Shown piece after piece: positions 26,367 to 44,261 of a DNA stretch of 64,000 nucleotides (its first letter is position 1; each line of letters starts with the position of its first letter). Location of the stretch: positions 2,400,001 to 2,464,000 of the forward strand of contig CBDCDC010000002.1 of assembly GCA_965215195.1 (NCBI GenBank), read 5' to 3'. This stretch comes from Candidatus Latescibacterota bacterium (lineage in GTDB: Bacteria; Latescibacterota; UBA2968; UBA8231). The notes under the pieces were generated by a model, which did not search any database, was not told the DNA's origin, and worked only from the letters and a program-made list of their open reading frames with translations. The translations under genes and the position numbers were made by a program.

Positions 26367-28004
26367 ATGACGGAGACATCGCCGTCCGCACGGGCGCGGT
26401 TCACTACCCGGCCTCCGCGCTTCTTCAACACGGCCGGCCCCATCAAGCCGGATAGGCACTATCACATCCCACCGTTGGAACGGCTCGACCTCGACGGGGT
26501 GCTGGCGCTGATCGAGCAAGAAAAGTACTTCGTGCTGCACGCGCCCCGGCAGACGGGCAAGACCTCGGCACTGCTGGCGCTGATGGAGGAGCTGAACGGC
26601 AGCGGCTGGTATCGCTGCGTGTACGTCAACGTGGAGATCGGCCAGTCTGCCCGCGAGGACGTAGGCGCGGCCATGCAGGCCATACTCAGTGAGCTGGCGT
26701 CGAGGGCGGAACGTCTCTTGGGCGAGCAGGTCGTGAAGGAGGTCTGGCGCGAAGTGCGCGATGAGGCCGGCCCCCACGGCGTGTTGCAGGCGGTGCTGAG
26801 TCGCTGGGCGGCGGCCGATGAGAGGCCGCTAGTGCTGCTGATCGACGAGATCGACGCCCTGATCGGCGACACCCTCTTGGCCGTGCTGCGGCAACTGCGC
26901 GCCGGCTACCCCGACCGGCCGCAGCACTACCCGCAGAGCGTGATCCTATGCGGGGTGCGCGACGTGCGCGACTACCGCATCCACTCCACGGCCGAGAACG
27001 CCATCATCGCTGGCGGCAGTGCGTTCAACATCCGCGCCAAGTCCCTGCGCTTGGGCGATTTCACCGCGGACGACATGCGCGTACTGCTGGCGCAACACAC
27101 TGCGGCGACCGGCCAAGCGTTCACTGAGGATGCCCTAAACGAGGTCTGGCGACAAACGCAGGGCCAGCCGTGGCTGGTGAACGCGCTGGCCTACGAAGCC
27201 TGCTTTGAGAACAAGGCCGGCCGGGACCGCAGCCAGCCCATCACCGCCGAAGCGGTCGCCGACGCCCGCGAGCAACTCATCCTGCGCCGCGAGACGCATC
27301 TCGACCAACTCACCGACAAGCTGCAAGAAGAACGCGTCCGCCGCGTCATCGAACCCCTGCTGAGCGGGGCCGAAGACGACGAAGCGATTCCCGAAGACGA
27401 CGTGGACTACGTCCGCGATCTGGGCTTGGTGCGCCTATCCCCTTTCGCCATTGCCAATCCGATCTATCAGGAGGTCATCCCCCGCGCCTTGACCTATACC
27501 ACCCAGCTCCGGTTCCGACACGACCCGGCTTGGTATGTGGATGCCGACGGCACCCTGCGCGTCGCCGATCTGCTGGCCGCCTTCCAAGCGTTCTTCCGCG
27601 AACATTCCGAGCACTGGGTTGAGCGGTTCCAATACAAGGAAGCCGGTCCGCAGTTGCTGCTGCAAGCGTTCTTGCAGCGCATCGTCAACAGCGGGGGTCG
27701 GATCGAGCGGGAGTATGGCTTGGGGCGGCGGCGCACCGATCTGCTGCTCATCTGGCCGGTGCCCGGGGCGACTCGGCCGGGTCAAGCGGTGCAGAAGGTG
27801 GTAGTCGAATGCAAGGTGCTGTACAAGGGCTTGGAGGAGACGGTGCGGGCAGGCGTAGAACAGACCCGTGCCTACATGGATCTGTGCGCCACCGCAGAGG
27901 GGCACCTCGTGGTCTTCGACCGCACCGTCGGCAAGTCGTGGGACGAAAAGATATTCCGCGAGCAGGGCACGGGCGAGGCGAACATCACCGTGTGGGGGAT
28001 GTGA
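26367..28004 (+). CDS. AAA-like ATPase with C-terminal PD-(D/E)xK-like domain (paralog 2)
   Basis: FNTAGP, APRQTGKTS, LLIDEID, RRTDLL...VVECK; strongly similar to 6309-7886. Confidence 0.85.
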   Translation: MTETSPSARARFTTRPPRFFNTAGPIKPDRHYHIPPLERLDLDGVLALIEQEKYFVLHAPRQTGKTSALLALMEELNGSGWYRCVYVNVEIGQSAREDVGAAMQAILSELASRAERLLGEQVVKEVWREVRDEAGPHGVLQAVLSRWAAADERPLVLLIDEIDALIGDTLLAVLRQLRAGYPDRPQHYPQSVILCGVRDVRDYRIHSTAENAIIAGGSAFNIRAKSLRLGDFTADDMRVLLAQHTAATGQAFTEDALNEVWRQTQGQPWLVNALAYEACFENKAGRDRSQPITAEAVADAREQLILRRETHLDQLTDKLQEERVRRVIEPLLSGAEDDEAIPEDDVDYVRDLGLVRLSPFAIANPIYQEVIPRALTYTTQLRFRHDPAWYVDADGTLRVADLLAAFQAFFREHSEHWVERFQYKEAGPQLLLQAFLQRIVNSGGRIEREYGLGRRRTDLLLIWPVPGATRPGQAVQKVVVECKVLYKGLEETVRAGVEQTRAYMDLCATAEGHLVVFDRTVGKSWDEKIFREQGTGEANITVWGM

Positions 28005-28037: not shown

Positions 28038-28673
28038 ATGATCGACCTCTCGCGGCCCATCACGCCGTCGGAAGGTCGCTTCATCCACTACTGCACGGCG
28101 CGCGTACCGGTTGACGACCCGCCGACCGACCGCTGGTATATCACCACCAGCATCGAAATAGGCGGTCACGCCGGCACCCATGTCGAAGGGCCTTTGCACG
28201 CTGTACAAGGCGGCCCGGCCATTGCCGAGCTCGATGTCGAGCGCTTTTTCGGCGAGGCCATCGTCTTCGACTTTAGTAATGCTCCGCTGGGTGAGCCGCT
28301 CTCGCCGGCGCAATTCCAACGGGCCGCCGACCCGGGTGGGGGCGTCCACCCGGGCGACATCGCACTCTTTCGCTTTGACTGGGATCAACGGGCTACCGCT
28401 GGTTCTCATCCGCCTTATCCTTCGAGCGCCGCTTTGCGCTGGCTCGTCCAAGCAGGCGTCAAACTGGTCGGCATCGACACCCCCGGCCTAGATATTCCGG
28501 GCGATCGCAGCCTGCCCAACCACCACCTACTTTTCGCACACAGCATCCCCCTAATCGAGAGCCTAGACCGCTTGGGCGACCTGCGACAATCTCGCGTTTA
28601 CCTTTTCGCCCAGCCGCTGCCGGCGGCCGAAACCGACGCCATTCCGCTGCGCGTACTCGCTTTTGAAGGGTAG
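28038..28673 (+). CDS. Cyclase/kynurenine formamidase-family metal hydrolase
   Basis: MIDLSRPI, HAGTHVEGPLH, VGIDTPG, LIESL. Confidence 0.88.
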   Translation: MIDLSRPITPSEGRFIHYCTARVPVDDPPTDRWYITTSIEIGGHAGTHVEGPLHAVQGGPAIAELDVERFFGEAIVFDFSNAPLGEPLSPAQFQRAADPGGGVHPGDIALFRFDWDQRATAGSHPPYPSSAALRWLVQAGVKLVGIDTPGLDIPGDRSLPNHHLLFAHSIPLIESLDRLGDLRQSRVYLFAQPLPAAETDAIPLRVLAFEG

Positions 28674-28846
28674 AGTGTCCACTCAGCGAGTCCGTCGTCT
28701 ATGGGATATGCCCGACTCAGCACCCGTTAGCGCACCCTCTACTACATCGAGGAGCTTGCCGGTGACGTCGGGCTGAAGGGTTGCCGCATGGGAGAGTAGT
28801 TCGCCGAGATCTTTGGCTGGGGAATTGCTTCCAAGATTCGTTACTA

Positions 28847-29731
28847 ACCAATGGTGCTAGTGAGTTGACCGTGGTCGAGGTAGTTCCTACGCTGAGGGTG
28901 TCCCCCCTTCCAGCGAAGGAGCGTCCCATGACCACGGCCGAGTTTATAATAGCCCTCTTCTATCGGATCGACAACCAGATGGGCGATGTGCCCAAACACC
29001 CCCAAGCCGCCTTATATCCCAGCGAAACGGTGACCCTGGCGGTTCTATATGCGCTCAAAGGGGACGGCAAACGGGCGTTTTATCGCTGGGTAGTGCGCGA
29101 TTGGCGCGCCTTTTTCCCGCGCCTGCCCGAACGCACCCGCTTGTTCCGCCTGTTTGTCGCCCATGCGGACTGGACCGATCGCTTTCGAGCGGACCCCACC
29201 CCCTTAGGCGTGATCGATAGCTATGGCATCGAGTTGATCCATCCAGTACGCGAAGGCCGCTCCGCTCACCCTATCGGCCAGAAAGGGTTGTCCAATCACC
29301 GCTGGATCGTCGGCGGCAAGCTGGGCTTGATCGTCAACCAGTGGGGCTTGATCGTCGATTGGGATTGTAACACGGCCAATGTCCACGATTCGGTCTTTCA
29401 CCCGATGATTGGTCGCTACGAAGAGCAGATGATCCTCCTCAGCGACCAAGGCTTTCATGCCAAAGAAGGTGATCCGGCTAATCTGAAAGTGTGTCCCCGC
29501 AAAACCTGGGGCGACCGGATGGTCATCGAGACCGTCTTTTCGATGCTGACCCGCATTGGCCGGTTCAAGCGACAGACCCATCGAGCTTGGGCCTACTTTA
29601 GAGCGCATCTGAGCGCGGCCATGGCCGCCTTTAACCTGCTGGCACAGTGGCATGGATTGCAACCGGATGAAAATGGATTCGTCCCGTTGTCCATCGCGGA
29701 ATTTAGCTTGTAGCCCACTAGCACCATTGGT
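28847..29731 (+). mobile_element. IS982-family insertion sequence, copy 1 (885 bp)
   Basis: Terminal IR ACCAATGGTGCTAGTG, 5-bp TSD TACTA. Confidence 0.88.
28928..29713 (+). CDS. IS982-like DDE transposase
   Basis: VIDS, NVHD, LSDQGF, RMVIETVFS. Confidence 0.85.
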   Translation: MTTAEFIIALFYRIDNQMGDVPKHPQAALYPSETVTLAVLYALKGDGKRAFYRWVVRDWRAFFPRLPERTRLFRLFVAHADWTDRFRADPTPLGVIDSYGIELIHPVREGRSAHPIGQKGLSNHRWIVGGKLGLIVNQWGLIVDWDCNTANVHDSVFHPMIGRYEEQMILLSDQGFHAKEGDPANLKVCPRKTWGDRMVIETVFSMLTRIGRFKRQTHRAWAYFRAHLSAAMAAFNLLAQWHGLQPDENGFVPLSIAEFSL

Positions 29732-29979
29732 TACTAGAGCGGCAATGCGCTCTTCTTGACGCTGTTTGGCGGCAATGCGCTCGCGGCGACCGCGTTCGAC
29801 GATCGCCGTAATTCCCGCTAACCAAACCTGCGCTTCTAGTACCCGCCTTTGCTCAACCAATTCTCGTGCCCGGCGCAGTGTATTTTCCACGAGACTTTTC
29901 AGCCTTGGATCTTCGGCCAGCACCGTCTTCAACTCGGTTGTGGCGAGTTCCGAGTGCAGTCGCGCATGTAAGGTAGCCA

Positions 29980-30963
29980 TTAATTTTTTAGCTGGTCAAG
30001 CAAGTGACCCCACAGTTGCCCGGATCTTTCCGCAGCTTCGTCGTGAGCCTTTTTTTGCTTTTCCAACATTTTTTCGAAATGATCGCGGTCAGCGCGTTTT
30101 TGCTCCTCCTGCCTCCGCGTCTCCGCTTCAACGAGTGAGCGAAGTGCCTCAATTGCCTTTTCAAATTCTGAATTGAGTTTTTTGCGAGTGTCTTCAACTA
30201 GTGCAAAGGTGTCTTTTACTTTCGCCAACTCTTCATCGATGGCCTTGTTTCTCCGTTCCGCCACATCTTCTTGCCATGCTCGCTCTTGCGCGGCCAGTGT
30301 TGCAAGATTCTTCTCAAAAGACGAAGCCAATGCCTGCGTCACGGATTGCCATTCGGCGAGTACGTTCGCCTGCCGTTTGGCGAAGTGATCCTCAACGGCT
30401 TCAATGGTCTTTTGCGTCGCTTGAATTACGGCTGCGTGTTGTTCCACCGCCTCTTTTGTCGCCTCGCAGAGCTGTGCAAATTCACTGCGTGCTTGTTTCG
30501 CTTCGGCCTGCATGGCCTCGGTTCTCGATTGCACCGCTTCTTCTTGCCATGCTCGCTCTTGCTCGGCCAGTGTTGCAAGATGCGAGCGAACATCCGATAA
30601 CATCTTTTCAAAAGACGAATCCAATGCTTGCGTCACAGATTGCCATTCGGCCAGCGTCTTGGTACGCCAGTCTTGGTCTCGCTTTCCGTACTCCTCGACA
30701 AGACGCTCAAACCGTTCCGCGAGAATTTTGTTTGCCTCGCTTTGCGCCGCTTTAGCTTCTTTGTTTGCTTCCCCGAGCCCTTCGTGAATGCTCAAGAGCA
30801 ACTGAACCAAATTCTGTCCAGCTTGCGCTGAAAGTACCCCGGCGACCACAGCAAGCCCCATCACAATAGCCCACGTTTCAACAGGGGGCATGACGATGGT
30901 TAAAACAGCCCCGGCGACCAAGGGGAACACAGCAACGAATGCAAATGATACCGTTTTCTTCAA
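29980..30963 (-). CDS. 2-TM membrane-anchored coiled-coil protein with internal duplication
   Basis: TTG start (TTGA overlap, AGGAG RBS); two hydrophobic helices; EWQSVTQAL.SSFEK..LATLA.QERAWQE twice. Confidence 0.75.
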   Translation of the reverse strand: MKKTVSFAFVAVFPLVAGAVLTIVMPPVETWAIVMGLAVVAGVLSAQAGQNLVQLLLSIHEGLGEANKEAKAAQSEANKILAERFERLVEEYGKRDQDWRTKTLAEWQSVTQALDSSFEKMLSDVRSHLATLAEQERAWQEEAVQSRTEAMQAEAKQARSEFAQLCEATKEAVEQHAAVIQATQKTIEAVEDHFAKRQANVLAEWQSVTQALASSFEKNLATLAAQERAWQEDVAERRNKAIDEELAKVKDTFALVEDTRKKLNSEFEKAIEALRSLVEAETRRQEEQKRADRDHFEKMLEKQKKAHDEAAERSGQLWGHLLDQLKN

Positions 30964-31619
30964 GAGTCTGTCTCCTCTCCTTTTAATGTTTCGTCGATGC
31001 GCTGTATGTGTGTAGCCAAGTCGCGGATACGCACCATATCTGCCCGCCATTTGTCCCATAGCTTCCGATAAAGCTTCCATAGATTTGGCCGGAAGACATC
31101 GTACAGCACGACTCCACCATCCAACTCATCTCGCCAGTCATCGTACCTTGCGCGATCTTTTGCAAGGCGTACTCGAAATGCCTTGAGGGAATGCGTCAAT
31201 TCGCCGACAAATTCGTTGCGGAGCCGCTCGGTATAGGCTTCTGTGACAAGCCCCTCAACCGCACTTTGCAATACGATGAACCGTTTCGGTGAGTCGGCAA
31301 AAGTCCCGGCCTCAACCATTGATCGAGTCGCTGCCGAGAAGAGCCTATCTACTTGGGGATTATCCAGTAAAGCACTCGCGGACGGCAGGTTTTGACTTGT
31401 TCCTTCCTCGAGTACTTTCCTCAGAACGCCCAAAATTTCGTACACCAGTTTCAGGATTTCGTCTTGAGCCTCCAATGGCGGCTCCCCCATCTCGGCCGTG
31501 TCGCCTATCTCTGGGGGCCTAACGACCGGGAAACGCTGGCTTTTTGCAAAGGCATCGCGCCCGTCAAAGCCGGTGAGGAACCCGATGAATTCGGAAGAAT
31601 TTTTTGCCCATGTCGTCAT
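30960..31619 (-). CDS. Hypothetical protein (dynamin operon gene 5)
   Basis: TAATG coupling to the upstream gene; ~219 aa, helical character. Confidence 0.7.
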   Translation of the reverse strand: MTTWAKNSSEFIGFLTGFDGRDAFAKSQRFPVVRPPEIGDTAEMGEPPLEAQDEILKLVYEILGVLRKVLEEGTSQNLPSASALLDNPQVDRLFSAATRSMVEAGTFADSPKRFIVLQSAVEGLVTEAYTERLRNEFVGELTHSLKAFRVRLAKDRARYDDWRDELDGGVVLYDVFRPNLWKLYRKLWDKWRADMVRIRDLATHIQRIDETLKGEETDS

Positions 31620-32626
31620 TATGGCTCTACCACGATCCAAGGCTGGTTCTTAATCGCATTGAACTTTTCGAGTGCTCGGCTAACTTTTGGCAACACTTTT
31701 GAGCGTACCCCTTCATCGTTTTCTCCACGCACGAGAGATGCCGCTCTAAAGAGTCCTATGCGAACAGGTGTGTCTTGCCAAAAGTGGGAAAGCCAGTCAA
31801 TTACGTCTCGAGGTCCTATTTGCTCTCTATTGACGCACCACACGACCCGGCGTACTCGCCGCCATTGATGCAACTCCGCCGCTTCGGGAAGCACTTTCAA
31901 CTCTGGCCATAAGACAATCCAGCGATCGCGGGCGAGCAACGGATTTGGAACCTCAACTGCAATGGTTTCACCTTCAAAATGCGATAAAGTCGAATGGGAA
32001 GATGCCAGAACTTTTGCAGCATCAGTGCTTGTCAGCGATTCGGTTACACGTAGGCGACGGGGCCAACCCTCCCGCGTGACCTCTACGCGGTGATACTCGG
32101 GTGCGATGAGCCTTGATCGGTGAGAGCCGAAGAGCAGTAGCGGGCGGTTTGTGGGGAAAACATCCCTCGTGAGCCCCATTGATAGGAGCACGTGTTCCAG
32201 TGCGGGACGCGACCGAGACAACCAGAGATCAGCCGACTCCTCGAAGAGTATATCTACGGCGTTCTCTGCTTCATATCGCTCAGACTCAGTGTCGAAACTG
32301 GCGAATGGACCATCCTCGTCAAATTCAGTATTGAGACCGGCGAATGGACCATCCTCGTCAAATTCAGTATTGAGACCGGCGAATGGACCATCCTCGTCAA
32401 ACTCAGTATTGAGACCGGCGGATGGACCATCATCGTCAAACTCAGTGTCGAGACCGGCGAATGGATCATCAATCTCTGGTTCAGACCCATCATCAGCGAT
32501 CCCTGTATCGAAACCGGCAAGTGGATCATCGCTCGAGTCGACTACACTGGCGTCGGACAAGGCTTTCTCCAAGCCCCGTTTTCTTTTGAGAACCCGTTCC
32601 CAGAGATCTGCTGTGCCTTGACTCAT
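31619..32626 (-). CDS. Acidic-repeat protein with possible degenerate dynamin-type G domain
   Basis: ATGA coupling; (GPFAGLNTEFDED)n; IAVEVPNPLLARDRWIVLWP resembles the strand before DTPG in DLPs. Confidence 0.7.
   Translation of the reverse strand: MSQGTADLWERVLKRKRGLEKALSDASVVDSSDDPLAGFDTGIADDGSEPEIDDPFAGLDTEFDDDGPSAGLNTEFDEDGPFAGLNTEFDEDGPFAGLNTEFDEDGPFASFDTESERYEAENAVDILFEESADLWLSRSRPALEHVLLSMGLTRDVFPTNRPLLLFGSHRSRLIAPEYHRVEVTREGWPRRLRVTESLTSTDAAKVLASSHSTLSHFEGETIAVEVPNPLLARDRWIVLWPELKVLPEAAELHQWRRVRRVVWCVNREQIGPRDVIDWLSHFWQDTPVRIGLFRAASLVRGENDEGVRSKVLPKVSRALEKFNAIKNQPWIVVEP
32287..32530 (-). repeat. 39-bp tandem repeat (13-aa acidic unit), about 5 copies plus a degenerate one
   Basis: accggcgaatggaccatcctcgtcaaattcagtattgag repeated in tandem. 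Confidence 0.92.
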
Positions 32627-34989
32627 AATGCCTCCAACTGTGACAATGCAGACTGAAGGGCCAAACGCATCTTCTCGTTGTTTTCGAGGGCTTCTTTGAC
32701 GGCAGCTTCCCCCTGAGCCTGTTTTGCTTGCGCTTCCTTCAACGCGGCTTGAACCTCGGCCTTGATCGCACGCACACGCTCCCGCAGGTGATTCTCAAGT
32801 GCTTCATGGGCGGAATCAAAACCTGCGCTCACTGCCCGGCGAATATCCGCGAAAAGAGAATCCCCATCGCGAGCGAGCAATTGGCGAGCGAGCTGGTCCA
32901 CTAGTGCCGCCTTAGCCTTAGATGCTTCTTCCTCCCGCTCTATATTCTGCCGGTGTACCTCCAAACGTGCGGTTCGTTGTTCTACGCTCTCCAGTTCGGT
33001 GCGTTTTTCCCGCAGGCGTTGCTCAAAATGATCCTGCCGCAACCGAATTTTTTCTCGCTCATATCCGAGCTTGAGTATCTCATCGTCGTAGGGTTTCTTG
33101 AGCTTGAGAAACTCCTGACGAACCTCTTCGTTTTCGATTTCGACTATTTTATTTGGATGTAGATGACCGCCAATTTTTTCCCCCAAGCGTTCTCCCCACG
33201 TTTCAAGGGACAAGTTTTCGCCAATTTTCGCCAACCAACTCTGGGATCCCTGTTCTGTCGTCGTCCAGCCGCGCTTAATCGGTATATGTTGTGCGCCCGT
33301 CGCCCAGCTGCGCAGCCATTTGTTGCGAGCGGCGATGAGGCCATTGTATTTCTTGATCCCACCAATGATCTGATTACTCCGTGGTAGATTTTTCAAAAAC
33401 ATGCCGACTTTTCCACTGGTGGGAATAGGAATAGGTGCTAAGGTCAAAACCACATCGGCTATCTTTCCCACTACGCGCCCAGCTTCCTGAAATTCTCGCT
33501 TTCCTTGGTCCAGAGAAACCTTATCCTTCTGCGGCACATAGACGAGTTTATCGCGCTCCGCTTGTGTAACAGACAGCGCCCGCTGGATGTCTTCCAGCTC
33601 CTCGGTCATGGGCGCGTGTTCCTGCAATTCCTTAATTTGGCGCAATAAGTCTGCTCGGGAACGCTGCAAATTTTCGACATCTGTCGCGTCCTCACCGGCG
33701 CGATTGGCTATTGTTCCCTCTGGCAGTTCTTGTAGCCAATCCGTTGAAATTCCCATCTGCTCAAAGTGTTGGGCTGCCACGGTCTGGGCGATTTGGACAC
33801 CCGCTTGATCGAGCTGTCTCAAGCGATCTTCGGCCGTGGCAATACACGCTTTGTGCCATTGTAGGACATAGCCGCGAATGGAACCATCGGCGAATCGCTG
33901 GACTTCGTCCCGGCCCTGCAATGTAGCGATCTTTGCGGAAATGGTTTGGAGGGTCTCCTTACCGATTTCGTACATGTGATTGAACGCCTCCAAACGCAAC
34001 CGCTTACAGCGACCCTTCAATGTATTGGTGGCATCTCTGAGACCGGCCTCCTGATCGGCCCCTTCCTCGACAATATCGCGCTCTTCGCCCTTGCCTTGTT
34101 CTTTTATGGTCAAAGCCTCAGCTTCGAGAGCCGACTGCTTGAGGCGGAGAGCCGACAATTCACTCTCAATTTTCGCAATCACGCGCCCGCCAATATGGTA
34201 CGCGACCAACTGATCGCGGCGCGTTCCCGTTACTTCTGACAAAACCTGCCGAAGAGTAGCAATACCTCTCCCTTCGGTACTCGATGTCGGCAATATCTCA
34301 AGCGGCGAGATGCCGCACTCTGCGAGGCGATTGCGAAAATCGTCGATCACCCGATCTACTTCACCTGAAGGAAGTAGATCTATTTTTGTCAGCGCGATTA
34401 CGACACTCGCCGAATTGTCGCCCAAACTATCCAAGTAATCAATATCAGTTCTCCGGCTCGTACTAGTCGCGGGAATGGCTAATATCACCACTGGCGCGGT
34501 AGCGGCAGCAGCCCAAGCGCGTCCCTCCAACTCCGGCGTGTTGGTATTCATTCCGGGTGTATCCACGATACTCGCGTTCCAAGTCGCCAAATCGTCGCAT
34601 CGCAGACCGACTTCGAGGCGCGAACCGTCAGCGAGCGTTTCTTTGCCCCGCACCAGTGCGTCCCAACGTGCGTCATCTTCGCTACACTCCTCCCATTCAC
34701 CGGTATCATCATGCACCACGGCGCGATAGCCGGCTGGCGCATATTTGACCTCGACCGGGCGCGCCGTGGATTCGAGAACATCTTGGGGAAAACTCGTCGC
34801 CGTATCAGCACCAAAGATGCGAGTAACCAACGCGCTTTTTCCCGATCCGGTTTCGCCGATGATGGGAATGCTCAACGGTGCTGCGTGTGCCGCATTAGAC
34901 TCATCGCGCACATAAGCCGCCAAACGGTCCAATCCAGCCGAATCCAGTGTCTCGACGATCGCTTTCCAGCGTTCCACAGCGTTGCTCAT
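32623..34989 (-). CDS. Dynamin-like GTPase 3
   Basis: G1 GETGSGKS, G2 LEST, G3 DTPG, G4 TKID; long helical stalk; hydrophobic VVGKIADVVLTLAPIPIP. Confidence 0.88.
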   Translation of the reverse strand: MSNAVERWKAIVETLDSAGLDRLAAYVRDESNAAHAAPLSIPIIGETGSGKSALVTRIFGADTATSFPQDVLESTARPVEVKYAPAGYRAVVHDDTGEWEECSEDDARWDALVRGKETLADGSRLEVGLRCDDLATWNASIVDTPGMNTNTPELEGRAWAAAATAPVVILAIPATSTSRRTDIDYLDSLGDNSASVVIALTKIDLLPSGEVDRVIDDFRNRLAECGISPLEILPTSSTEGRGIATLRQVLSEVTGTRRDQLVAYHIGGRVIAKIESELSALRLKQSALEAEALTIKEQGKGEERDIVEEGADQEAGLRDATNTLKGRCKRLRLEAFNHMYEIGKETLQTISAKIATLQGRDEVQRFADGSIRGYVLQWHKACIATAEDRLRQLDQAGVQIAQTVAAQHFEQMGISTDWLQELPEGTIANRAGEDATDVENLQRSRADLLRQIKELQEHAPMTEELEDIQRALSVTQAERDKLVYVPQKDKVSLDQGKREFQEAGRVVGKIADVVLTLAPIPIPTSGKVGMFLKNLPRSNQIIGGIKKYNGLIAARNKWLRSWATGAQHIPIKRGWTTTEQGSQSWLAKIGENLSLETWGERLGEKIGGHLHPNKIVEIENEEVRQEFLKLKKPYDDEILKLGYEREKIRLRQDHFEQRLREKRTELESVEQRTARLEVHRQNIEREEEASKAKAALVDQLARQLLARDGDSLFADIRRAVSAGFDSAHEALENHLRERVRAIKAEVQAALKEAQAKQAQGEAAVKEALENNEKMRLALQSALSQLEAL

Positions 34990-34991
34990 TT

Positions 34992-37436
34992 TTACTTCTC
35001 CTCGCCAGACTCGGCGACAAAAGCCTCGTGCTTTTTATTTAATGCGTCGCCGTCTCTTGCTAGGGTCTCCAAGTCTTCTATTGCCTGCGTAATCCCTTCC
35101 TTTGCCGTGTCCCGCTCGCTCTCTTTGACTTCCTTCATAGATTGGAGCTTTGCCAACTCCTGATTGTGGTCCTTCAAAGTGGCATCGAGTTCCGCCATTG
35201 CGTTCTCGATAAAATCCGTGGCCACCTTTTCGGTCTGACCGATACAGTGCTCCACAGCGGCTTTTAGGGTTTCCTCAACGCGTTGAAAGGTGTTGACCAG
35301 TTCTCCTTTGGCTGATACCAAAGCGGATTTACGGGCTTTCCCCTTCTTTTCCCGATACTGGCTTTCTACCCGTTTCAATGCCTGCTCCTGCTTTCGCTTG
35401 AGTTCTTCCAGCTTCTCGGAGCGGCGTCTCGCCAGCACCTCGGCGTCATACTTTTCTTTCGCCTTTTCCGCTAAGCGGTCGAGTTCAGCCAATTTCTCAG
35501 CGTGCTCCGTCTGAATGTTCCTACGACACTGATCATAATGTTTTCGGTCTGTGTCATCTCTAACCGTTTCCTCATAAGATTCCTGCCCTGTTCTGGACGA
35601 CCCTATTAGGCCTCCGCCAGCTCCTCCAGCCGCTGCACCTAACAGTGCCCCTATTGGACCTCCGAGAAAAAATCCCAATACGCCTCCTGCTACACTCCCA
35701 CCAGCCGCTCCCTTTGCTCCTCCACTCGGAACTTCTCTCTGTTTTACTTCTGGATAAACTCTCACTTCGGGACGGCTGCCGAGATGTTGGAGTTCACTGT
35801 GATATTCCTCGCTCAGTTGCTGCCTTTTCTCCTTTAGGTCCTTGTAGCGATGTTCGTCTATGCCTGCTCGGGCGTCATCCAACTTCTCCAACTGTCGATC
35901 GATGTCTTCTATTTCTCGCTCGCTTTTCTTGAGCTTCGCTTCTTCGGCTCCATCGATCTTTGGTGCCTGCAACTGAAAAGTCATTTCCGGCACTTCTGGA
36001 AGGTCGAAAGTGACTTCTCCCAATTCGCTCTGGATCTGTTTCCGAATCTCTCGAGTCTGCTTACGCAACACGCGACCTACAGCGTCATTCAAAAATTTCC
36101 CCGCTTGCCTATCGAGTGCCGCCAACTTTCTGCCCGGTAAGTCGGCCAAGCGGGCACCATCATTCCAGTTATCTTTAAGTGCCTCATGAGAGTCGTAGGC
36201 GTTGAGCTCGTCTCGAATCGCTTCTAAGGCGAGTTTGCATTGCTCCTCAAAAGCCTCTTGTGCTTTCAATAATTCCTGTGATAATTCCTCGGACAGTTCA
36301 TCCGTCATGCCTTCGAGTTCGCGTTTGCGATCTTCAACAATTCGTTCCGTTTTTTCTATTTCCCGTTCGAGGCCGGATAGATCAAAGGTGCCGTCGAGAA
36401 CCTCAAGTTGCCGATTCAACTTGTCGATGAGTTTGGCGGCCTCGCTTTCAATAAACGAGAGCGGACTATGCAAGAGATCACGACCCTTGCCTCCACCAAA
36501 AAGATACCGCTCAAGGTCGTCCTCAAAGGCATCGATCCCGGACTCTTCGATCAAAGTTTTGCAAAACCGCGGATCCTCTAACTTACTCCGCTCATTCTCC
36601 GCCAAAATCGGAGTTTTCGCGTACCCAGTACGCCCGATCAGTGCCTTCGCACCGGATACGCCAAAGACGCGGCGCATCTTGGACTGATCCACGACATTCC
36701 GAATATTACCTTCCACGCGCTCCAAAACCCGGCTGACTTCACTCCTGTCAACACTGTCAATTTTGTTCACGACAAAGAACAGACGAGCGACCGCTTCTTC
36801 CACACCTTCGAGAAACTCCCGATCCGACCGGGTCATTTGCGTTTCTGCACCAAACAGAAAAATTGCCGCATTACTGCGGTCGATCTGATCGTTGGTAATC
36901 CGAATATGGTTGTGGGTCGTTGTATTCGTTCCCGGGGTATCCACGAGCAGTACGTTGTCCGCGAGGAAGCGCGATTCAACGAAGGCATCTACATGATGCA
37001 CCGAATCCGCCACCTTGTCGCTGCCGAGGGCTGAGAGCCGCGAGGTATAATCCGCGAGTTTATCAACCGGCACTTTTTCCGGTGGCCTTTCATCGGTAAA
37101 ATGGACCTCGACGTAGCCGGATGACTGATCTCTTTCTGCCTTTGGATACCGAAGAAAATTGACTGTTGCCGTACACTCAAGTACGTCCATTGTGAGTAAT
37201 TGCTTGCGCATCATTGCGTTGAGGAGCATGGATTTCCCGCGATTCATTTCGCCGACGACCACGACCACGAATTCCTCACTCTTAACCGTGTTGGCCCGTT
37301 CTTGGAAAGTCTGTGGAAGGCCGCTTGCTCTTTCATCGCCCAAGTGTGGGACGACATTCTCCATGACTGCGGCGGCTCGATTCAATAGGTCAACCACCTC
37401 GTCGCGCAATTCTGCAAACCGATCTTTGATGCTCAT
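34992..37436 (-). CDS. Dynamin-like GTPase 2
   Basis: G1 GEMNRGKS, G2 LECT, G3 DTPG, G4 NKID; glycine-zipper paddle GGVLGFFLGGPIGALLGAAAGG. Confidence 0.92.
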   Translation of the reverse strand: MSIKDRFAELRDEVVDLLNRAAAVMENVVPHLGDERASGLPQTFQERANTVKSEEFVVVVVGEMNRGKSMLLNAMMRKQLLTMDVLECTATVNFLRYPKAERDQSSGYVEVHFTDERPPEKVPVDKLADYTSRLSALGSDKVADSVHHVDAFVESRFLADNVLLVDTPGTNTTTHNHIRITNDQIDRSNAAIFLFGAETQMTRSDREFLEGVEEAVARLFFVVNKIDSVDRSEVSRVLERVEGNIRNVVDQSKMRRVFGVSGAKALIGRTGYAKTPILAENERSKLEDPRFCKTLIEESGIDAFEDDLERYLFGGGKGRDLLHSPLSFIESEAAKLIDKLNRQLEVLDGTFDLSGLEREIEKTERIVEDRKRELEGMTDELSEELSQELLKAQEAFEEQCKLALEAIRDELNAYDSHEALKDNWNDGARLADLPGRKLAALDRQAGKFLNDAVGRVLRKQTREIRKQIQSELGEVTFDLPEVPEMTFQLQAPKIDGAEEAKLKKSEREIEDIDRQLEKLDDARAGIDEHRYKDLKEKRQQLSEEYHSELQHLGSRPEVRVYPEVKQREVPSGGAKGAAGGSVAGGVLGFFLGGPIGALLGAAAGGAGGGLIGSSRTGQESYEETVRDDTDRKHYDQCRRNIQTEHAEKLAELDRLAEKAKEKYDAEVLARRRSEKLEELKRKQEQALKRVESQYREKKGKARKSALVSAKGELVNTFQRVEETLKAAVEHCIGQTEKVATDFIENAMAELDATLKDHNQELAKLQSMKEVKESERDTAKEGITQAIEDLETLARDGDALNKKHEAFVAESGEEK

Positions 37437-39649
37437 GTTCTTTCTCCTTGGTCTTCGTTGAGAAAAGTCCCCAATGCTTCCTCAAGCGTCTTGCGAACAC
37501 CTTCTCGATTCACTCGTTCAGCATCTGCTGCACGTGCCTCTGCCCTTCTCCGCTTTATCTCGTCTGCGAGCAATTTGTGCTGTCGGTCCGCATTCTTTTT
37601 GAAGTGCTTAATGAAATCCCGTGAAATCTCCTCCAGCATTTGCTTAGCCCCCTGTTCGAGTCCATCGGGAAGTGACGCGAAAAGACCTTCCAACTCCCTT
37701 CGGGTACTTGCCTTAAGCTGTGCTTGTCGGGTTTTTATGCCCGCCTGACGATACCTCTCCCTTTCTTCTGCCAGACGGGCCTCTGCCCGCCTCAGACGTG
37801 CTTTGGTGTTGTCAGCGTCTCGCTGCAATTTTGGGAGTTCACCTCTGGCCTTTTGCATCTCTGTCCGCATATTTTTGAGAGGCGCGATCTTCCGTTCTAA
37901 ATCGGAAACCTTCTTATCCGCCGCCTTGAATTTGCGTTCCCATTCCTCCACGCGGCTGTAGTCTTTGCGTTGCCGCTGCACCGCGACCTCCTCTTCTTTG
38001 GGACCAAGTAGCCAGTCTAGGAAGCCTAATCCACCACGCTTTACTTTTTTCGTCTCGTATGCAGTGTAATTTTCCACTTTTGGAGTTGGTTTCGGCCCGA
38101 GTTGCGTTCTATTTCGCACAGCCTTTTTGCGTTGCGTCTCTAAATTCTCTAACTGAGCAGACTGTCTCTTAAGTGTTTCGATCTCTGCCTCTCGCATTTG
38201 CACAGCCCGCTCGCACCTTGCGACCTCCCTCTTCAGCCTACCAATTTCGTCCTCGCGGCGGCTTAACACCTCACTCGCTTTGTCGGCGTGCTGTTTCAAT
38301 ACCGCCGTATCTATATCTAATTGAATGGAAACCTTCCCGACATTTAACGGAGCGACCGCTCTCACTTCGAGGTCATAGGCCAATCGACGCGCTGCTGCTT
38401 CCAACAGTCGGGAGACTCTGTTAAAAATAGATTTTTGCATTCTTCCTTTAAGCCATTCAGACACGTTCTTTTGCGCTAGATCTAGATTTTCTTGTTCGAG
38501 CAACTCAGCCCCTAGCCCATCGACAAACCCCATCATCTCTCGTTCAATTTGGAATTTCTCTTTGTCCAAAAAGCCAGAGAGGATCCTCAATTCCTCCATC
38601 AGAGTTTCTCGTGCCAATTGGAGAGTTTTCTCTAGTGAGTTTTGTAGGTTTTCTTCGGCTTCTTTGAGCTGCTTTTTCGCTTCCTCCAATTCCCTTTCGG
38701 CCCCGCACTCTTTCTCAATTTTTTTGATGCGTTCGATCTCCGCCTTGCAAATTTCGCGCAAGAGTAATAATGGATGCCTTCGTAGTGCCGAAGTCGGATC
38801 CTCTAAAGCACTCTTCCGCAGATCGTGCTTAAAGCGGACCTCTTCGTTCTCTAGTTCCTGCTCGCCCTCACAGTAAGCACCACCTTCGAAAGCGCGTTTG
38901 GCAGAGAGCGTATAAATGTCTTCGCGAGGAAGATCGGGAACTCTCCGGCGAAGTTCCTCTCTAAACTGCTCAAACTCATCGCCCATCTTTGCGTATTGAT
39001 CGCACTTGTTGATGACAACCATGACGCGGTCGGCAATGGACCGTGCCTTTTTGATCAACTCGGCATCGCTCTTGCGCCCAATCCCATCGACAGGAACCAC
39101 GACAATGGTCACATGGGACATACCAAGCTGGTGCATGCTCCGCGCTTCCAATTCTGTATTGCCATTGAGTCCAGGCGTATCCACGAGCACAAGGCCGGTT
39201 AGTTGCCTCTCGCTTTCTACGGGCAGTGCAACCTCGACTCGTTCAATGGTCTCCCAAGCATCTTCATCAAGGGTGGTCCGGGCACTGACTTCGGAAAGGG
39301 GCATGGCGTCCGTATCGCCATTCGCATAAACGACGGTGGCCGGTCGATTCTCATCAAAGCTCTCTTCGTCGCTCCACCGAACCCAAGTCGGCACGGCCGT
39401 ACACTCCAATTGGTCGGTCGCAAGCAGGTCTTCTCCGATGAAAGCGTTGAGGAGGGTGGATTTTCCCGTGTTGAACTCGCCCATCACGGTGATGCAAAGG
39501 CGTTGTTGTTCAAAATGCACGAGCGAACTCTCGAAAGCCCTTTGGTCGCGCTCGCGGTCTTCAAGGCCTTCAAGAGCTTTCCAAATCGGCTCGGCCTGCC
39601 GACGCAAAGCAGCCGTCTCAGCCTTCAACGTTTCTCGCGAAATCCTCAT
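37433..39649 (-). CDS. Dynamin-like GTPase 1
   Basis: G1 GEFNTGKS, G2 LECT, G3 DTPG, G4 NKCD; amphipathic RGGLGFLDWLLG; AAGGAG RBS before ATG 39649. Confidence 0.92.
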   Translation of the reverse strand: MRISRETLKAETAALRRQAEPIWKALEGLEDRERDQRAFESSLVHFEQQRLCITVMGEFNTGKSTLLNAFIGEDLLATDQLECTAVPTWVRWSDEESFDENRPATVVYANGDTDAMPLSEVSARTTLDEDAWETIERVEVALPVESERQLTGLVLVDTPGLNGNTELEARSMHQLGMSHVTIVVVPVDGIGRKSDAELIKKARSIADRVMVVINKCDQYAKMGDEFEQFREELRRRVPDLPREDIYTLSAKRAFEGGAYCEGEQELENEEVRFKHDLRKSALEDPTSALRRHPLLLLREICKAEIERIKKIEKECGAERELEEAKKQLKEAEENLQNSLEKTLQLARETLMEELRILSGFLDKEKFQIEREMMGFVDGLGAELLEQENLDLAQKNVSEWLKGRMQKSIFNRVSRLLEAAARRLAYDLEVRAVAPLNVGKVSIQLDIDTAVLKQHADKASEVLSRREDEIGRLKREVARCERAVQMREAEIETLKRQSAQLENLETQRKKAVRNRTQLGPKPTPKVENYTAYETKKVKRGGLGFLDWLLGPKEEEVAVQRQRKDYSRVEEWERKFKAADKKVSDLERKIAPLKNMRTEMQKARGELPKLQRDADNTKARLRRAEARLAEERERYRQAGIKTRQAQLKASTRRELEGLFASLPDGLEQGAKQMLEEISRDFIKHFKKNADRQHKLLADEIKRRRAEARAADAERVNREGVRKTLEEALGTFLNEDQGERT

Positions 39650-39903
39650 TTTAGTACACTCCTTGATTGCGGATGTACTAGGGCCGTAGGCTATGTATTT
39701 ATTGTAAGAACTTGGATCAGCGAGGTGCTGACATCGCCCTGACGGCTCCCGAGGGAGCCGGGCAGTGTCGTAGTCGCGCAAATTGATGCGGGAATCCTAC
39801 CTATTTACTCAGCGGTTGGAAGCTATCCAACCGTTTCAGAATGAGCTCTTGTATTCAGCAGGCCACCCGACATAGGACGACTTGCGCTACTACGACGGCA
39901 TTG

Positions 39904-39931
39904 AATATACGCCATAAATTCAGGAATACAA
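39904..39931 (-). promoter_or_regulatory. Candidate sigma70 promoter of the dynamin operon
   Basis: TTGTAT-N16-TATATT on the minus strand. Confidence 0.5.
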
Positions 39932-39969
39932 GGGAGAAAATCGACGCCATGCCGCTGCGCGTACCGTGC

Positions 39970-40089
39970 TAAGAAGCCGTCTGCTTCACCGCGCCTTTAG
40001 GCGTGACAAACCCCTGTCGGGCTGCTTTGCAAGGCGATCCAGCGACCTCGGCGTCCGGCGTTGTTCGAGGGCGAGACGCCCTCGATCCC
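39970..40089 (+). repeat. ~118-bp repeat element (inverted partner at ~42267-42382)
   Basis: agaagc.gtctgcttcaccgcgcctttaggcgtgacaaacc ... tcgagggcgagacgccctcgatcc shared in inverted orientation. Confidence 0.8.
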
Positions 40090-40153
40090 AGCGGCTTGGA
40101 GTCAAGGCCGAGAGCGAAACCTTAGCTTTTGCAGGGTAGGGGTCTAGCGCAGA

Positions 40154-42185: not shown

Positions 42186-42266
42186 TGTCGTTTTTCTCCC
42201 AGTTGAAGTTCTAAGAAGCGGTCTGAAAATTCCGCGAACCGTCCCTTGTGTGCAGCAAACAATCGA

Positions 42267-42382
42267 GGATCGAGGGCGTCTCGCCCTCGAAAAACGCGCC
42301 ATCCGAGGGCCGCTTGACCACTACTCAACGCGGTCCGCCAGCGGTTTGTCACGCCTAAAGGCGCGGTGAAGCAGACCGCTTC
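42267..42382 (-). repeat. Inverted partner of the 39970-40089 element
   Basis: Both ends match the first copy; the middle diverges. Confidence 0.8.
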
Positions 42383-42391
42383 TAACGCCTG

Positions 42392-43639: not shown

Positions 43640-43663
43640 GGCGGACTCCTCTTTTACTTTGCG

Positions 43664-43963
43664 TTAGACCGGGTGCATCTGGACTTCTCGATCCAGTCTG
43701 TCCGCTAAGGCTTCAAGTGTCGTTTCGAGTTCGTACCGCGTTTGAAGATTCATCCAGAATTGTGCTTCCATCCTAAAGAAACGACCTAGTCGCAAAGCCG
43801 TATCTGCCGTGATCCCTCGCTTGCCATGCACAATTTCATTGATGCGACGCGGTGGCACACCGATTGCCCGCGCCAAATGGTATTGACTGATTTGCATTGG
43901 CTTGAGAAAATCCTCGAATAGGATTTCACCTGGATGGATTGGTGGAAAGTCTCGTTTGGTCAT
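43664..43963 (-). CDS. higA: HigA/VapI antitoxin (HTH)
   Basis: [35 protein letters not shown]. Confidence 0.93.
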
Positions 43964-43973
43964 GATTTTCACC

Positions 43974-44255
43974 TCAATGATAATCAACGATCTCGACATC
44001 AAAGGCATTATCGTTACGCCATACGAAGCACACACGCCACTGATCGTTCACGCGAATGCTATGCTGCCCCTGCCGGTCATGGCTCAGTGCTTCGAGCCGG
44101 TTGCCGGGCGGTACGCGTAGGGTTTCAAGAATCGTAGCAGCGTTGAGTTGCTCGAGTTTGCGTGCAGCTATTCGTTGAATAGTATGCGGCAATTTGCGGG
44201 AAAATTGGCCGCGAAAAACTTTTTCGGTCTCCTTGTCCTTAAACGATTTAATCAT
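43974..44255 (-). CDS. higB: HigB (RelE-like) toxin
   Basis: [34 protein letters not shown]. Confidence 0.93.
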
Positions 44256-44261
44256 ATTTTG

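What the first reader, a model, noticed from the sequence alone, without database searches (positions are those of the whole stretch)
28683..39649. Seven-gene operon with three tandem dynamin-like GTPases plus membrane and coiled-coil accessories: candidate new membrane-remodelling or anti-phage system
Seen: seven minus-strand genes, all coupled (ATGA, TAATG or TTGA overlaps, or a 2-bp gap). Three ~740-815-aa proteins each have intact G1-G4 motifs, long helical stalks and different hydrophobic paddles (amphipathic FLDWLLG, a glycine zipper, VLTLAPIPIP). They are followed by an acidic-repeat protein, a 219-aa protein, a 2-TM coiled-coil protein and a 135-aa protein. The block is visibly more AT-rich than its flanks. 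Known: bacterial DLPs usually occur as pairs or fusions (B. subtilis DynA, C. jejuni DLP1/2, Streptomyces DynAB); E. coli LeoABC/Eleos and DynA act in phage defence or membrane repair. Inference: three full-length DLPs with four dedicated accessory genes is a larger architecture than those I recognise, and it looks horizontally acquired. It may be a hetero-oligomeric membrane machine tethered by the 2-TM protein, possibly defensive.
Basis: partly seen in the sequence, partly recalled or inferred. Interest (0 to 1): 0.85.

Follow-up and report, generated by a model that had tools for sequence, protein, structure and literature searches.

The report
Mobile seven-gene triple-dynamin island
An 11-kb horizontally acquired island in a Latescibacterota genome encodes three dynamin-like GTPases plus four proteins of no known family; this rare, strictly conserved set probably reshapes or guards the cell membrane, possibly against phages, but its function is untested.

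Summary
Seven translationally coupled minus-strand genes lie at 28683-39649. Three are full-length dynamin-like GTPases with intact G1-G4 motifs. The others are an acidic-repeat protein, a 219-aa helical bundle, a TM-hairpin coiled-coil protein and a 135-aa protein split by a multicopy IS.

The set keeps the same order in 5 of 5 orthologous loci. It is a low-GC3 insertion at a variable site: 2 of 5 complete congeners checked have the site empty. It is rare: 5 of 168 genomes in the phylum and 1 of 301 in the order of a distant host. The distant host's copy is far more similar than its neighbouring RecQ gene, which indicates horizontal transfer.

No curated family claims it. LeoA/LeoBC matches are weak and generic, the DynA and CrfC models score far below cut-off, and the four accessory proteins match nothing.

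Three tandem DLPs are not unique in themselves. The same genome has two other triple-DLP clusters, all patchy within the genus.

Most likely it is an accessory GTP-driven membrane machine for defence or membrane repair. That function is inferred. Only 1 of 3 independent contexts contains defence genes. I rate it a new variant of a known kind, of moderate interest.

The parts
28630..28656 (.). Direct repeat, left copy: the real 3' end of the cyclase gene, at the g7-proximal edge of the island
   Evidence: (D7) pairs it 25 of 27 nt with 39938-39964. One search shows homology to the empty sites ending at the cyclase stop codon (28670-28673).
28683..28844 (-). g7 C-terminal fragment (53 codons plus stop), still in frame
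   Evidence: The frame-1 translation matches the C-termini of intact orthologues in alignment A4.
28842..29736 (+). IS5-type insertion sequence interrupting g7. The transposase ORF lies at about 28928-29713. A 7-nt direct repeat sits at 28840-28846 and 29730-29736.
   Evidence: Inverted repeats of 21 nt, 95% complementary (I1). DDE_Tnp_1_3 at 28.7 bits. Of 27 matches in the genome, 20 are near full length, 10 of them at 99-100% identity. The flanking repeat is read.
29738..29980 (-). g7 N-terminal fragment (81 codons). It is the most conserved protein of the set.
   Evidence: 75-94% identity to orthologues, dN/dS 0.09-0.23. No family or Atlas hit.
29980..30963 (-). g6: N-terminal TM hairpin followed by about 270 aa of coiled coil with two internal repeats of about 91-98 aa
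   Evidence: KD19 peaks of 2.52 and 1.87, conserved in 6 of 6 loci. Repeats D2 and D3. Only weak coiled-coil-type hits: ZorA tail 20.8 bits, SMC 14 bits.
30960..31619 (-). g5: 219-aa protein with a conserved but poorly modelled N-terminus and an all-helical bundle
   Evidence: AF2 mean pLDDT 81.4. No fold match with E <= 0.001 in PDB or BFVD. The family is closed: 55 clusters and 12 representatives in 1.84 billion proteins.
31619..32626 (-). g4: conserved N-terminal helix, acidic repeat region (13-aa units), and a C-terminal alpha/beta domain (about residues 133-335)
   Evidence: Alignments A2 and A5. 39-nt repeats (D1). AF2 pLDDT 72-90 for residues 133-285 and below 50 for residues 1-132. The best Foldseek hits are dynamin-family G domains, but none has E <= 0.001.
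32623..34989 (-). g3: third, most divergent DLP (788 aa) with a conserved hydrophobic 'LTLAPIP..GGKVG' segment
   Evidence: Dynamin_N 29.2 bits. G motifs. No DLP hit by sequence in the PDB. Hydrophobic-segment alignment.
34992..37436 (-). g2: BDLP/mitofusin-class DLP (814 aa) with a glycine-zipper expansion found only in the window's copy among six loci
   Evidence: Dynamin_N 78.5 bits. Family profile against Nostoc BDLP 2j68 gives E 9.8e-26. Hydrophobic-segment alignment.
37433..39649 (-). g1: DLP (738 aa). Its closest solved relative by sequence is C. jejuni DLP2.
   Evidence: Dynamin_N 64.2 bits. 5owv_C at E 9.5e-11. G motifs and hydrophobic loop.
39650..39937 (-). Upstream non-coding leader of the operon, inside the island
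   Evidence: Sequence read. No promoter-like site was found there by the consensus scan. No Rfam family.
39938..39964 (.). Direct repeat, right copy: a duplicated piece of the cyclase 3' end at the g1-proximal edge
   Evidence: D7. One search matches it to the cyclase 3' end of the empty sites. In L004 the equivalent copy is 54-60 nt at 91-95% identity.
39969..40129 (.). Interspersed repeat of about 160 bp (MITE/REP-like) between the island edge and Ldh_2
   Evidence: 47 further matches in the genome. Contig depth about 7800 against about 400 for the cluster in run X1.

Best explanation
This is a rare, horizontally mobile seven-gene module built around three paralogous bacterial dynamin-like GTPases.

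SHOWN. All three DLPs keep their GTP-binding motifs and carry a short hydrophobic membrane-insertion segment. g6 is a membrane protein with a TM hairpin and a long cytoplasmic coiled coil. The seven genes travel together as one translationally coupled block. The block sits in variable genome sites and has moved between distant hosts.

INFERRED. The three DLPs assemble on the cytoplasmic membrane, recruited or tethered by g6. They use GTP hydrolysis to tubulate, fuse or seal membrane. g4 (acidic tail plus an alpha/beta domain that may be a degenerate G domain), g5 and g7 act as adaptors or regulators. The biological role is an accessory protective one: anti-phage defence or repair of membrane damage, as for B. 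subtilis DynA and the two-gene Eleos system.

In this particular assembly the last gene is split by an IS. This copy may therefore be inactive, although IS-free alleles exist in related populations.
For: ANATOMY. Dynamin_N is above cut-off in g1-g3, with G1, G3 and G4 intact. The g2 profile matches Nostoc BDLP (E 9.8e-26), C. jejuni DLP1 and mitofusins. g1 matches C. jejuni DLP2. The TM hairpin is conserved in 6 of 6 loci. All gene junctions are coupled.

CONSERVED SET. All seven genes lie in the same order in 5 of 5 orthologous loci. The DLP2, g4 and g5 families are closed and of similar size, at 55, 62 and 55 clusters. Within the genus, DLP2 and g5 occur in the same 3 of 30 other genomes.

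ACCESSORY AND MOBILE.
- Distribution: 5 of 168 phylum genomes including the window's own, and 1 of 301 in the order of the distant host G168.
- Empty site: cyclase and Ldh_2 are only 93 and 43 bp apart in 2 of 5 complete congeners, and the other 3 carry different cargo there.
- Edges and composition: a 27-nt flanking direct repeat, 54-60 nt in L004, and GC3 of 0.50-0.57 against 0.72-0.84.
- Transfer: L008's RecQ is 40-47% identical to Latescibacterota RecQ, whereas g3 is 72% identical.

CONFLICT-LIKE SIGNALS. dN/dS is 0.16-0.47 for g1-g6 (0.29-0.47 against same-genus loci) versus 0.05-0.20 for five flank genes. In L006 the block lies between a ThsB-type TIR protein plus a type II/III-like methyltransferase on one side and a D12 methyltransferase on the other.

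PRECEDENT. DynA and a two-gene dynamin system protect against phages (passages of bioRxiv 10.1101/2022.05.11.491447).
Against: - There is no direct functional evidence of any kind.
- Only 1 of 3 independent contexts (L006) has defence-type neighbours. The window's genus has metabolic flanks, and L008 has RecQ, glyoxalase and an AMP-binding enzyme.
- PADLOC gives only weak, generic LeoA/LeoBC hits of 20-60 bits. The genome's other DLPs score in the same range, 24-68 bits.
- dN/dS is well below 1. The excess over the flanks could simply reflect weakly constrained coiled coils.
- The alternative cargo at the same site in congeners is not clearly defensive: a Cu/Zn superoxide dismutase, and a protein whose HSDR_N_2 hit is just under cut-off.
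- The G-like reading of g4 has no sequence support. hhalign probabilities are 0.03-0.21 and there is no PDB sequence hit.
- g7 is disrupted in this assembly.
Confidence: 0.5

Rival explanations
1. It is a physiological membrane-remodelling module unrelated to conflict. Examples would be vesicle formation, membrane fusion or fission during growth, or adaptation to a host-associated or sediment niche. It would be carried as an optional niche-adaptation island.
For: DLPs of the BDLP/mitofusin class are general membrane fusion and fission machines (matches). In the window's genus the flanks are metabolic genes. The alternative cargo at the same site includes a superoxide dismutase, which is a stress gene rather than a defence gene.
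Against: It is very patchy even within one genus: 3 of 30 other genomes. It shows transfer between distant hosts. One context contains a TIR protein and methyltransferases. dN/dS is elevated.
Confidence: 0.2
2. It is simply a divergent member of the Eleos (LeoA/LeoBC) dynamin defence system, with an extra DLP and passenger genes.
For: g1 and g2 hit the PADLOC LeoBC model (48.3 and 59.7 bits, 372-391 of 601 positions), and g1 hits LeoA at 39.5 bits. The Eleos paper notes that one gene can be split, so gene number varies (passage).
Against: - The LeoA match covers only 63 of 559 model positions, around the P-loop.
- All other DLPs in this genome and in two Bacillota loci give the same kind of weak hit, 24-100 bits.
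- Eleos has two DLP genes and no accessories. Here three full-length DLPs and four family-specific proteins are conserved in 5 of 5 loci.
Confidence: 0.1
3. The module serves the mobile island itself. It could mediate membrane events for the island's transfer or maintenance, or exclude competing elements, rather than benefit the host.
For: The island has att-like direct repeats and sits in a variable hotspot. In L006 it lies next to a protein with a weak TnsA-like endonuclease match, 20.9 bits and below cut-off.
Against: No integrase, transposase (other than the late IS), relaxase or conjugation gene lies inside the 11.3-kb island. The module was not found in viral contigs.
Confidence: 0.08
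4. In this genome the module is a decaying, non-functional remnant. The IS hit in the most conserved gene has inactivated it.
For: g7 is split after codon 81 by an IS that has 20 near-full copies in the genome. g7 has the lowest dN/dS of the set, which suggests it matters.
Against: All other ORFs are intact, and both g7 pieces are undamaged. The IS copy is 100% identical to other copies, so the insertion is recent. Contigs in 2 of 4 runs laid bridge the site without the IS, at a depth similar to the cluster's. This rival concerns only this copy, not the nature of the system.
Confidence: 0.1

Closest known systems
Eleos / LeoA-LeoBC two-gene dynamin defence system (Millman et al. 2022; passages read)
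   Same: Tandem, co-transcribed bacterial DLPs. The GTPase motifs are needed for defence in that system. It is patchy and island-borne. There are weak HMM matches to LeoBC and LeoA.
   Different: Eleos has two DLPs (or three genes when one is split) and no accessory proteins. Here there are three full-length DLPs plus four proteins of no known family. The HMM matches are no better than for unrelated DLPs.
C. jejuni DLP1/DLP2 pair (PDB 5owv) and Nostoc BDLP (PDB 2j68)
   Same: These are the closest solved relatives by sequence. The g2 profile matches BDLP at E 9.8e-26 and DLP1 at 2e-16. g1 matches DLP2 at 9.5e-11. That DLP1 and DLP2 form a heterotypic pair is my recollection of the 5owv paper; the entry title speaks of 'an oligomerised bacterial dynamin pair'.
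   Different: The matches cover mainly the G domain and neck. There is a third, very divergent DLP (g3) with no DLP hit in the PDB by sequence, and there are dedicated accessory genes.
B. subtilis DynA (fused double DLP)
   Same: DLP acting at the membrane, with a reported role in phage resistance (cited in the passage read).
   Different: The NCBIfam DynA model NF052648 scores 21.7 and 30.1 bits against a cut-off of 1600. DynA is a single fused protein, not an operon.
Other triple-DLP operons: two in the same genome (L001, L002) and two in Bacillota (L009 Pseudoneobacillus, L010 Bacillus hominis)
   Same: Three tandem DLP genes, often followed by small or membrane proteins. g1 and g2 group with the Bacillota DLPs in a quick tree (SH-aLRT 87-91). 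All are patchy within the genus, found in 3-5 of 30 other genomes.
   Different: No homologue of g4-g7 was found in those loci by tblastn at E <= 0.001. hhalign of the g4 and g5 profiles against the 409-aa L009 accessory protein gave nothing. I found no paper describing these operons.
Mycobacterial iniBAC (IniA and IniC DLPs plus IniB)
   Same: An operon of DLPs with a non-DLP partner, induced by envelope stress (recalled; IniA 6j72 is a weak PDB match, E 2.4e-06).
   Different: iniBAC has two DLPs and one Gly-rich partner. No similarity of g4-g7 to any PDB or family entry was detected.

Membership tests
Dynamin superfamily (bacterial DLP) | Dynamin_N G domain above Pfam's gathering score | tested here: met
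   g1 64.2, g2 78.5 and g3 29.2 bits against a cut-off of 27.
Dynamin superfamily (bacterial DLP) | Intact G1 (GxxxxGKS/T), G3 (DxxG) and G4 (N/TKxD) motifs | tested here: met
   All three proteins have them. The motifs are invariant in alignments A1, A7 and A8.
Dynamin superfamily (bacterial DLP) | Helical stalk with a membrane-binding paddle | tested here: inconclusive
   Short hydrophobic segments lie at about two thirds of each protein's length and are aligned across orthologues.
Eleos (LeoA + LeoBC) | One protein matching the LeoA model over most of its length | tested here: not met
   The best LeoA hit is g1 at 39.5 bits, covering positions 40-102 of 559.
Eleos (LeoA + LeoBC) | One protein matching the LeoBC model | tested here: inconclusive
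   g2 scores 59.7 bits and g1 48.3 bits over about 65% of the model. Unrelated DLPs in the genome and in Bacillota score 24-100 bits. No bona fide Eleos protein was available as a positive control.
Eleos (LeoA + LeoBC) | Two-DLP architecture without dedicated accessory genes | tested here: not met
   Three DLPs plus four accessory genes are conserved in 5 of 5 loci.
DynA (NCBIfam NF052648) | Score above the equivalog cut-off of 1600 bits; fused double DLP | tested here: not met
   21.7 bits (g1) and 30.1 bits (g2).
CrfC (NCBIfam NF007368) | Score above the cut-off of 1146 bits | tested here: not met
   24.9 bits for g1.
Zorya ZorA (for g6) | MotA/ExbB-type channel domain with a long tail | tested here: not met
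   Only the coiled-coil tail of the ZorA3 model matches (20.8 bits, positions 256-530 of 692). g6 has a two-TM hairpin and no Pfam domain.
Dynamin-type G domain (for the g4 C-terminal domain) | G-domain fold and nucleotide-binding motifs | tested here: inconclusive
   The first 25 Foldseek PDB ranks are all dynamin-superfamily chains, with best E 0.012, probability 0.82 and TM-score 0.21-0.33. No hit reaches E <= 0.001. hhalign against the three DLP profiles gives probabilities of 0.03-0.21. No P-loop Lys/Ser or DxxG motif is present (read).

The most novel reading that the evidence does not exclude
This is a previously undescribed, self-contained dynamin machine. Three active DLPs and a fourth, degenerate G-like subunit (g4) with an acidic tail would assemble on a dedicated TM-hairpin coiled-coil anchor (g6), with two further novel subunits (g5, g7). 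It would act as a mobile anti-phage or membrane-rescue system that spreads between phyla. It would also be one of several distinct multi-DLP islands forming a variable 'dynamin immune repertoire' in Latescibacterota.
Probability: 0.3. Interest if true: 0.75.

Novelty: new variant of a known kind. Interest (0 to 1): 0.55.

Why it matters
Bacterial dynamins are known as single proteins or as pairs, and how they are recruited and regulated is largely unknown. This module offers a defined, conserved partner set: a membrane anchor, an acidic-tail protein that may carry a degenerate G domain, and two small helical proteins. These partners could show how DLP machines are targeted and switched.

Its mobility and rarity, and the coexistence of several different multi-DLP islands in one genus, suggest that dynamin-based systems are a more diverse accessory (possibly immune) repertoire than the single Eleos entry in current catalogues. 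If it is defensive, it would add a membrane-acting mechanism with eukaryotic parallels such as Mx proteins and mitofusins.

The limits are that the hosts are uncultured and that everything beyond the anatomy and distribution is inference.

Tried and rejected
COMPLEX PREDICTION. Complex prediction of full-length g3 with the g4 C-terminal domain failed twice, so there is no result and no verdict.

FOLD AND PROFILE SEARCHES.
- The VIA libraries (pdb_via_wide, pdb_via) were not on the machine. Only Foldseek was used.
- The g5 fold gave nothing with E <= 0.001 in PDB or BFVD.
- The Protein Atlas gave no usable hit for g7 or for the g4 C-domain.
- hhalign of the g4 profile against the g1, g2 and g3 profiles gave nothing.
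- The g4 profile against PDB sequences gave 0 hits at E <= 10.
- The g4 and g5 profiles against the 409-aa accessory protein of L009 gave nothing.

COLLECTION SCANS. The JGI metagenome-contig scan with the DLP2 alignment returned only one non-orthologous locus. The viral-contig scan returned none.

CO-OCCURRENCE PROXY. I tried matching 'longest contig' lengths between the three family hit lists. This gave only partial overlap, for example 12 of 14 for DLP2 contigs of at least 200 kb. I rejected it as a measure, because clusters at 90% identity report one contig each.

OPERON SIGNALS. The promoter and terminator scan found no more sites than shuffled sequence. Rfam found no family.

EXPRESSION. 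No RNA holder was listed among 16 runs that hold the stretch, so nothing can be said about expression.

TREE. The DLP tree is the quick version only. It has many long branches and no named reference DLPs, so I use it only for the grouping of orthologues.

LITERATURE. Searches for a described triple-DLP system found none. The nearest item is an H. pylori island said to contain three DLP-helical proteins (PMC8935386, passages read). Supplements are closed, so Table S5 of the Eleos paper, which lists system variants, could not be checked.

Full report
OBSERVATION.
The region 28683-39649 holds seven co-directional minus-strand genes.
- g1 (738 aa), g2 (814 aa) and g3 (788 aa) carry Dynamin_N above Pfam's cut-off, at 64.2, 78.5 and 29.2 bits against 27. 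Their G1, G3 and G4 motifs are intact and invariant among orthologues.
- g4 (335 aa) has five 39-nt acidic repeats.
- g5 is 219 aa.
- g6 most likely starts at a TTG that overlaps the g5 stop codon, giving 327 aa. It has an N-terminal TM hairpin conserved in 6 of 6 loci, followed by a coiled coil with two internal repeats.
- g7 is cut after codon 81 by an 895-bp IS with 21-nt inverted repeats. Its C-terminal piece is still in frame and matches intact orthologues of 128-146 aa.
- The cluster is compositionally distinct. GC is 0.48-0.56 against 0.61-0.66 in the flanks. GC3 is 0.50-0.57 against 0.72-0.84 in 7 of 8 flank genes.
The five orthologues have a short Gly-hydrophobic loop there.

WHOSE GENOME.
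The window is G000:C2:2400001-2464000, in a 6.13-Mb assembly of two contigs (95.2% complete, 8.5% contamination). Its flanks are 88-90% identical in DNA to three chromosomes titled 'MAG: Candidatus Latescibacterota bacterium' (L004, L005, L007). The genome search places these in the same genus.

THE SET IS CONSERVED.
- DLP2 (g2) has 55 orthologue clusters at E <= 1.5e-118, and the next hit drops to 2.1e-39 (134 proteins at E <= 0.001 among 8000 candidates scored).
- The reference-genome scan gave 8 loci, 5 of them orthologous (L004-L008).
- In 5 of 5 of these, tblastn finds g1 to g7 in the same order. In L008, g1 is cut by the contig end.
- The g4 and g5 families are closed. g4 has 62 clusters, all at E <= 4.5e-84. 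g5 has 55 clusters. None has a Pfam domain or a name. An exhaustive HMM search of 1.84 billion representatives found only 12 g5 relatives.
- Within the genus, g5 and DLP2 occur in the same 3 of 30 other genomes (G133, G136, G141).

IT IS A MOBILE ISLAND IN A VARIABLE SITE.
- Five complete congeners that lack the set were examined. In G129 and G131 the cyclase and Ldh_2 genes are 93 and 43 bp apart. G130, G134 and G135 carry 1.2-1.45 kb of other cargo there: a protein with an HSDR_N_2 match just under cut-off, or a Cu/Zn superoxide dismutase with a small neighbour.
- In the window, homology to the empty site stops at the cyclase stop codon and resumes at the Ldh_2 3' end.
- A 27-nt piece of the cyclase 3' end (25 of 27 identical) is repeated at 39938-39964. 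The equivalent copy in L004 is 54-60 nt long.
- No integrase lies in the island.
- In the phylum, 5 of 168 genomes including G000 hold g5.
- L008 comes from a genome labelled Pseudomonadales. Its RecQ gene, next to the cluster, is only 40-47% identical to Latescibacterota RecQ, while g3 is 72% identical to the window's.
- In that genome's order, only G168 itself among 301 sampled genomes holds g5.
- L006 and L008 have unrelated flanks.
- The set was not found in viral contigs.

EVOLUTIONARY RATE.
Against the same-genus loci, dN/dS (NG86) is 0.29-0.47 for g1-g6 and 0.09-0.16 for the g7 N-terminal piece. Five flank genes give 0.05-0.20. dS is 0.27-0.79 in the cluster against 0.27-0.47 in the flanks. 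The proteins are under purifying selection that is weaker than in their neighbours. This fits a conflict system, but it also fits coiled-coil-rich proteins in general.

WHAT THE PARTS ARE.
- g2's family profile matches Nostoc BDLP (E 9.8e-26), C. jejuni DLP1 (2e-16), Fzo1/mitofusins, SynDLP and IniA. g1 matches C. jejuni DLP2 (9.5e-11) and BDLP. g3 matches no DLP in the PDB by sequence.
- g4: AF2 on a 62-sequence alignment gives a disordered N-terminal part (residues 1-132, pLDDT below 50) and an alpha/beta domain (residues 133-285, pLDDT 72-90). In Foldseek against the PDB, the first 25 ranks are all dynamin-superfamily chains (Drp1, MxA, MxB, IniA, mitofusin, Cj-DLP2, Mgm1). The best E is 0.012 and none reaches 0.001.
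- Profile-profile comparison of g4 with the three DLP families is negative. By eye, g4's conserved strands (LLIFGSHRS, VAVEVPNPLL, VVWCV[ND]REQ) fall in the order of G1, G3 and G4 but lack the catalytic residues. This is my inference. A degenerate G-like domain is therefore a lead, not a result.
- g5 folds confidently (pLDDT 81.4) into a helical bundle with no significant fold match.
- g7 has no match anywhere.

COMPARISON WITH KNOWN SYSTEMS.
- PADLOC 2.0 gives LeoBC at 48.3, 59.7 and 20.3 bits for g1-g3. LeoA scores 39.5 bits for g1 over only 63 of 559 model positions.
- The genome's other eight DLPs and six Bacillota DLPs give the same kind of hit, 24-100 bits. These matches therefore reflect general DLP similarity.
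- The NCBIfam DynA and CrfC models score 22-30 bits against cut-offs of 1600 and 1146.
- The Eleos paper describes a two-gene dynamin operon, sometimes with the first gene split. It lies next to defence systems in 60% of cases, needs both P-loops, and is active against jumbo phages (passages read).
- I found no paper describing a three-DLP operon with such accessories.

THREE DLPs ARE NOT UNIQUE.
- G000 has 13 Dynamin_N matches, of which 11 are over cut-off on their own. They are arranged as three triplets and one pair.
- All of these are patchy within the genus. The L003 type is in 5 of 30 other genomes, the L002 type in 4 of 30, and this type in 3 of 30.
- All have low GC3, 0.50-0.66.
- Pseudoneobacillus (L009) and Bacillus hominis (L010) also carry three tandem DLPs with their own downstream genes.
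- No homologue of g4-g7 was found in any of those loci.

CONTEXT EVIDENCE FOR DEFENCE.
There are three independent contexts.
- In L006 the block lies between a ThsB-type TIR protein (69.2 bits) plus a type II/III-like N6/N4 methyltransferase on one side and a D12 methyltransferase on the other.
- In L008 the neighbours are RecQ, a glyoxalase and an AMP-binding enzyme.
- In the window's genus the flanks are metabolic genes.
The defence signal is therefore 1 of 3, which is suggestive only.

THE IS AND POPULATION DATA.
- The IS has 27 matches in G000. Twenty are near full length, 10 of them at 99-100% identity, so the insertion is recent.
- Of 4 runs laid, contigs from 2 (X1 and X6, from two studies) join 28818 to 29726 without the IS. 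Eight other letters lie between, which corresponds to a small in-frame difference in g7. In X1 the depth of this contig (301) is similar to the cluster's (256-415).
- IS-free alleles therefore exist. X1 may be the source sample, so it is not independent support.

VERDICT.
The anatomy, conservation, rarity and mobility are shown. The mechanism is inferred: three DLPs working together on the membrane with g6 as anchor and g4, g5 and g7 as regulators. So is the role, defence or membrane rescue. I put the protective-module reading at 0.5. The rivals are ordinary physiological remodelling (0.2), a divergent Eleos (0.1), an element-serving function (0.08) and a dead copy (0.1).

I file it as a new variant of a known kind (bacterial multi-DLP systems) rather than categorically new.

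Noticed in passing
G000 C1:544-549 kb (L001), C1:610-616 kb (L002), C2:1393-1396 kb (L003): The same genome has two more triple-DLP clusters and a DLP pair. All have low GC3 (0.50-0.66) and are patchy within the genus, in 4-5 of 30 other genomes. Two of the DLPs (L001 935 aa, L003 second 772 aa) carry ankyrin-like C-terminal parts that match PADLOC candidate PDC-M72A at 104-147 bits.
   Followed up: partly
window 28842-29736; window 50274-51168; G000 C1:550978-551872 and C1:609924-610125: Copies of the same IS lie inside this cluster, directly beside the L001 triple-DLP cluster and, as a 200-nt remnant, beside the L002 cluster. The genome has 20 near-full copies, so three of them next to DLP clusters looks like more than chance. 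I ran no formal test.
   Followed up: partly
window 39969-40129 and 42267-42383: An interspersed repeat of about 160 bp (MITE/REP-like) has 47 further matches in the genome. One copy sits between the island edge and Ldh_2. The last ~90 nt of the GFO-gene query (window about 42210-42302) also hit many places in congeners.
   Followed up: partly
window 26367-28004 (+): A 545-aa AAA ATPase gene (AAA_22, AAA_16, AAA_35; GC3 0.84) is present in the window but absent from L004, L005 and L007, where window positions 26333 and 28009 are adjacent. It is a second strain-specific insertion, one gene away from the island. It has no PADLOC or NCBIfam hit.
   Followed up: partly
L007 17620-18110: Between g7 and the cyclase gene, L007 carries extra fragments: a 116-nt copy of the cyclase 3' end and pieces of Ldh_2 (98 nt internal plus about 75 nt of the 3' end). 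These are scars of repeated recombination at this site. L005 lacks Ldh_2 altogether and has a 174-aa ORF with a weak BrxE-like hit (18 bits) in its place.
   Followed up: partly
window 42392-46281: Three PhyH-family dioxygenase genes (415, 342 and 284 aa) cluster next to GFO/IDH/MocA and Ldh_2 oxidoreductases. This looks like a small catabolic or modification gene group and is unrelated to the finding.
   Followed up: no
L006 16-2581: Upstream of the L006 copy lie a 716-aa protein with a weak TnsA-like endonuclease match and a 134-aa ThsB-type TIR protein with no ThsA detected in the fetched stretch. This may be another defence or mobile module.
   Followed up: no
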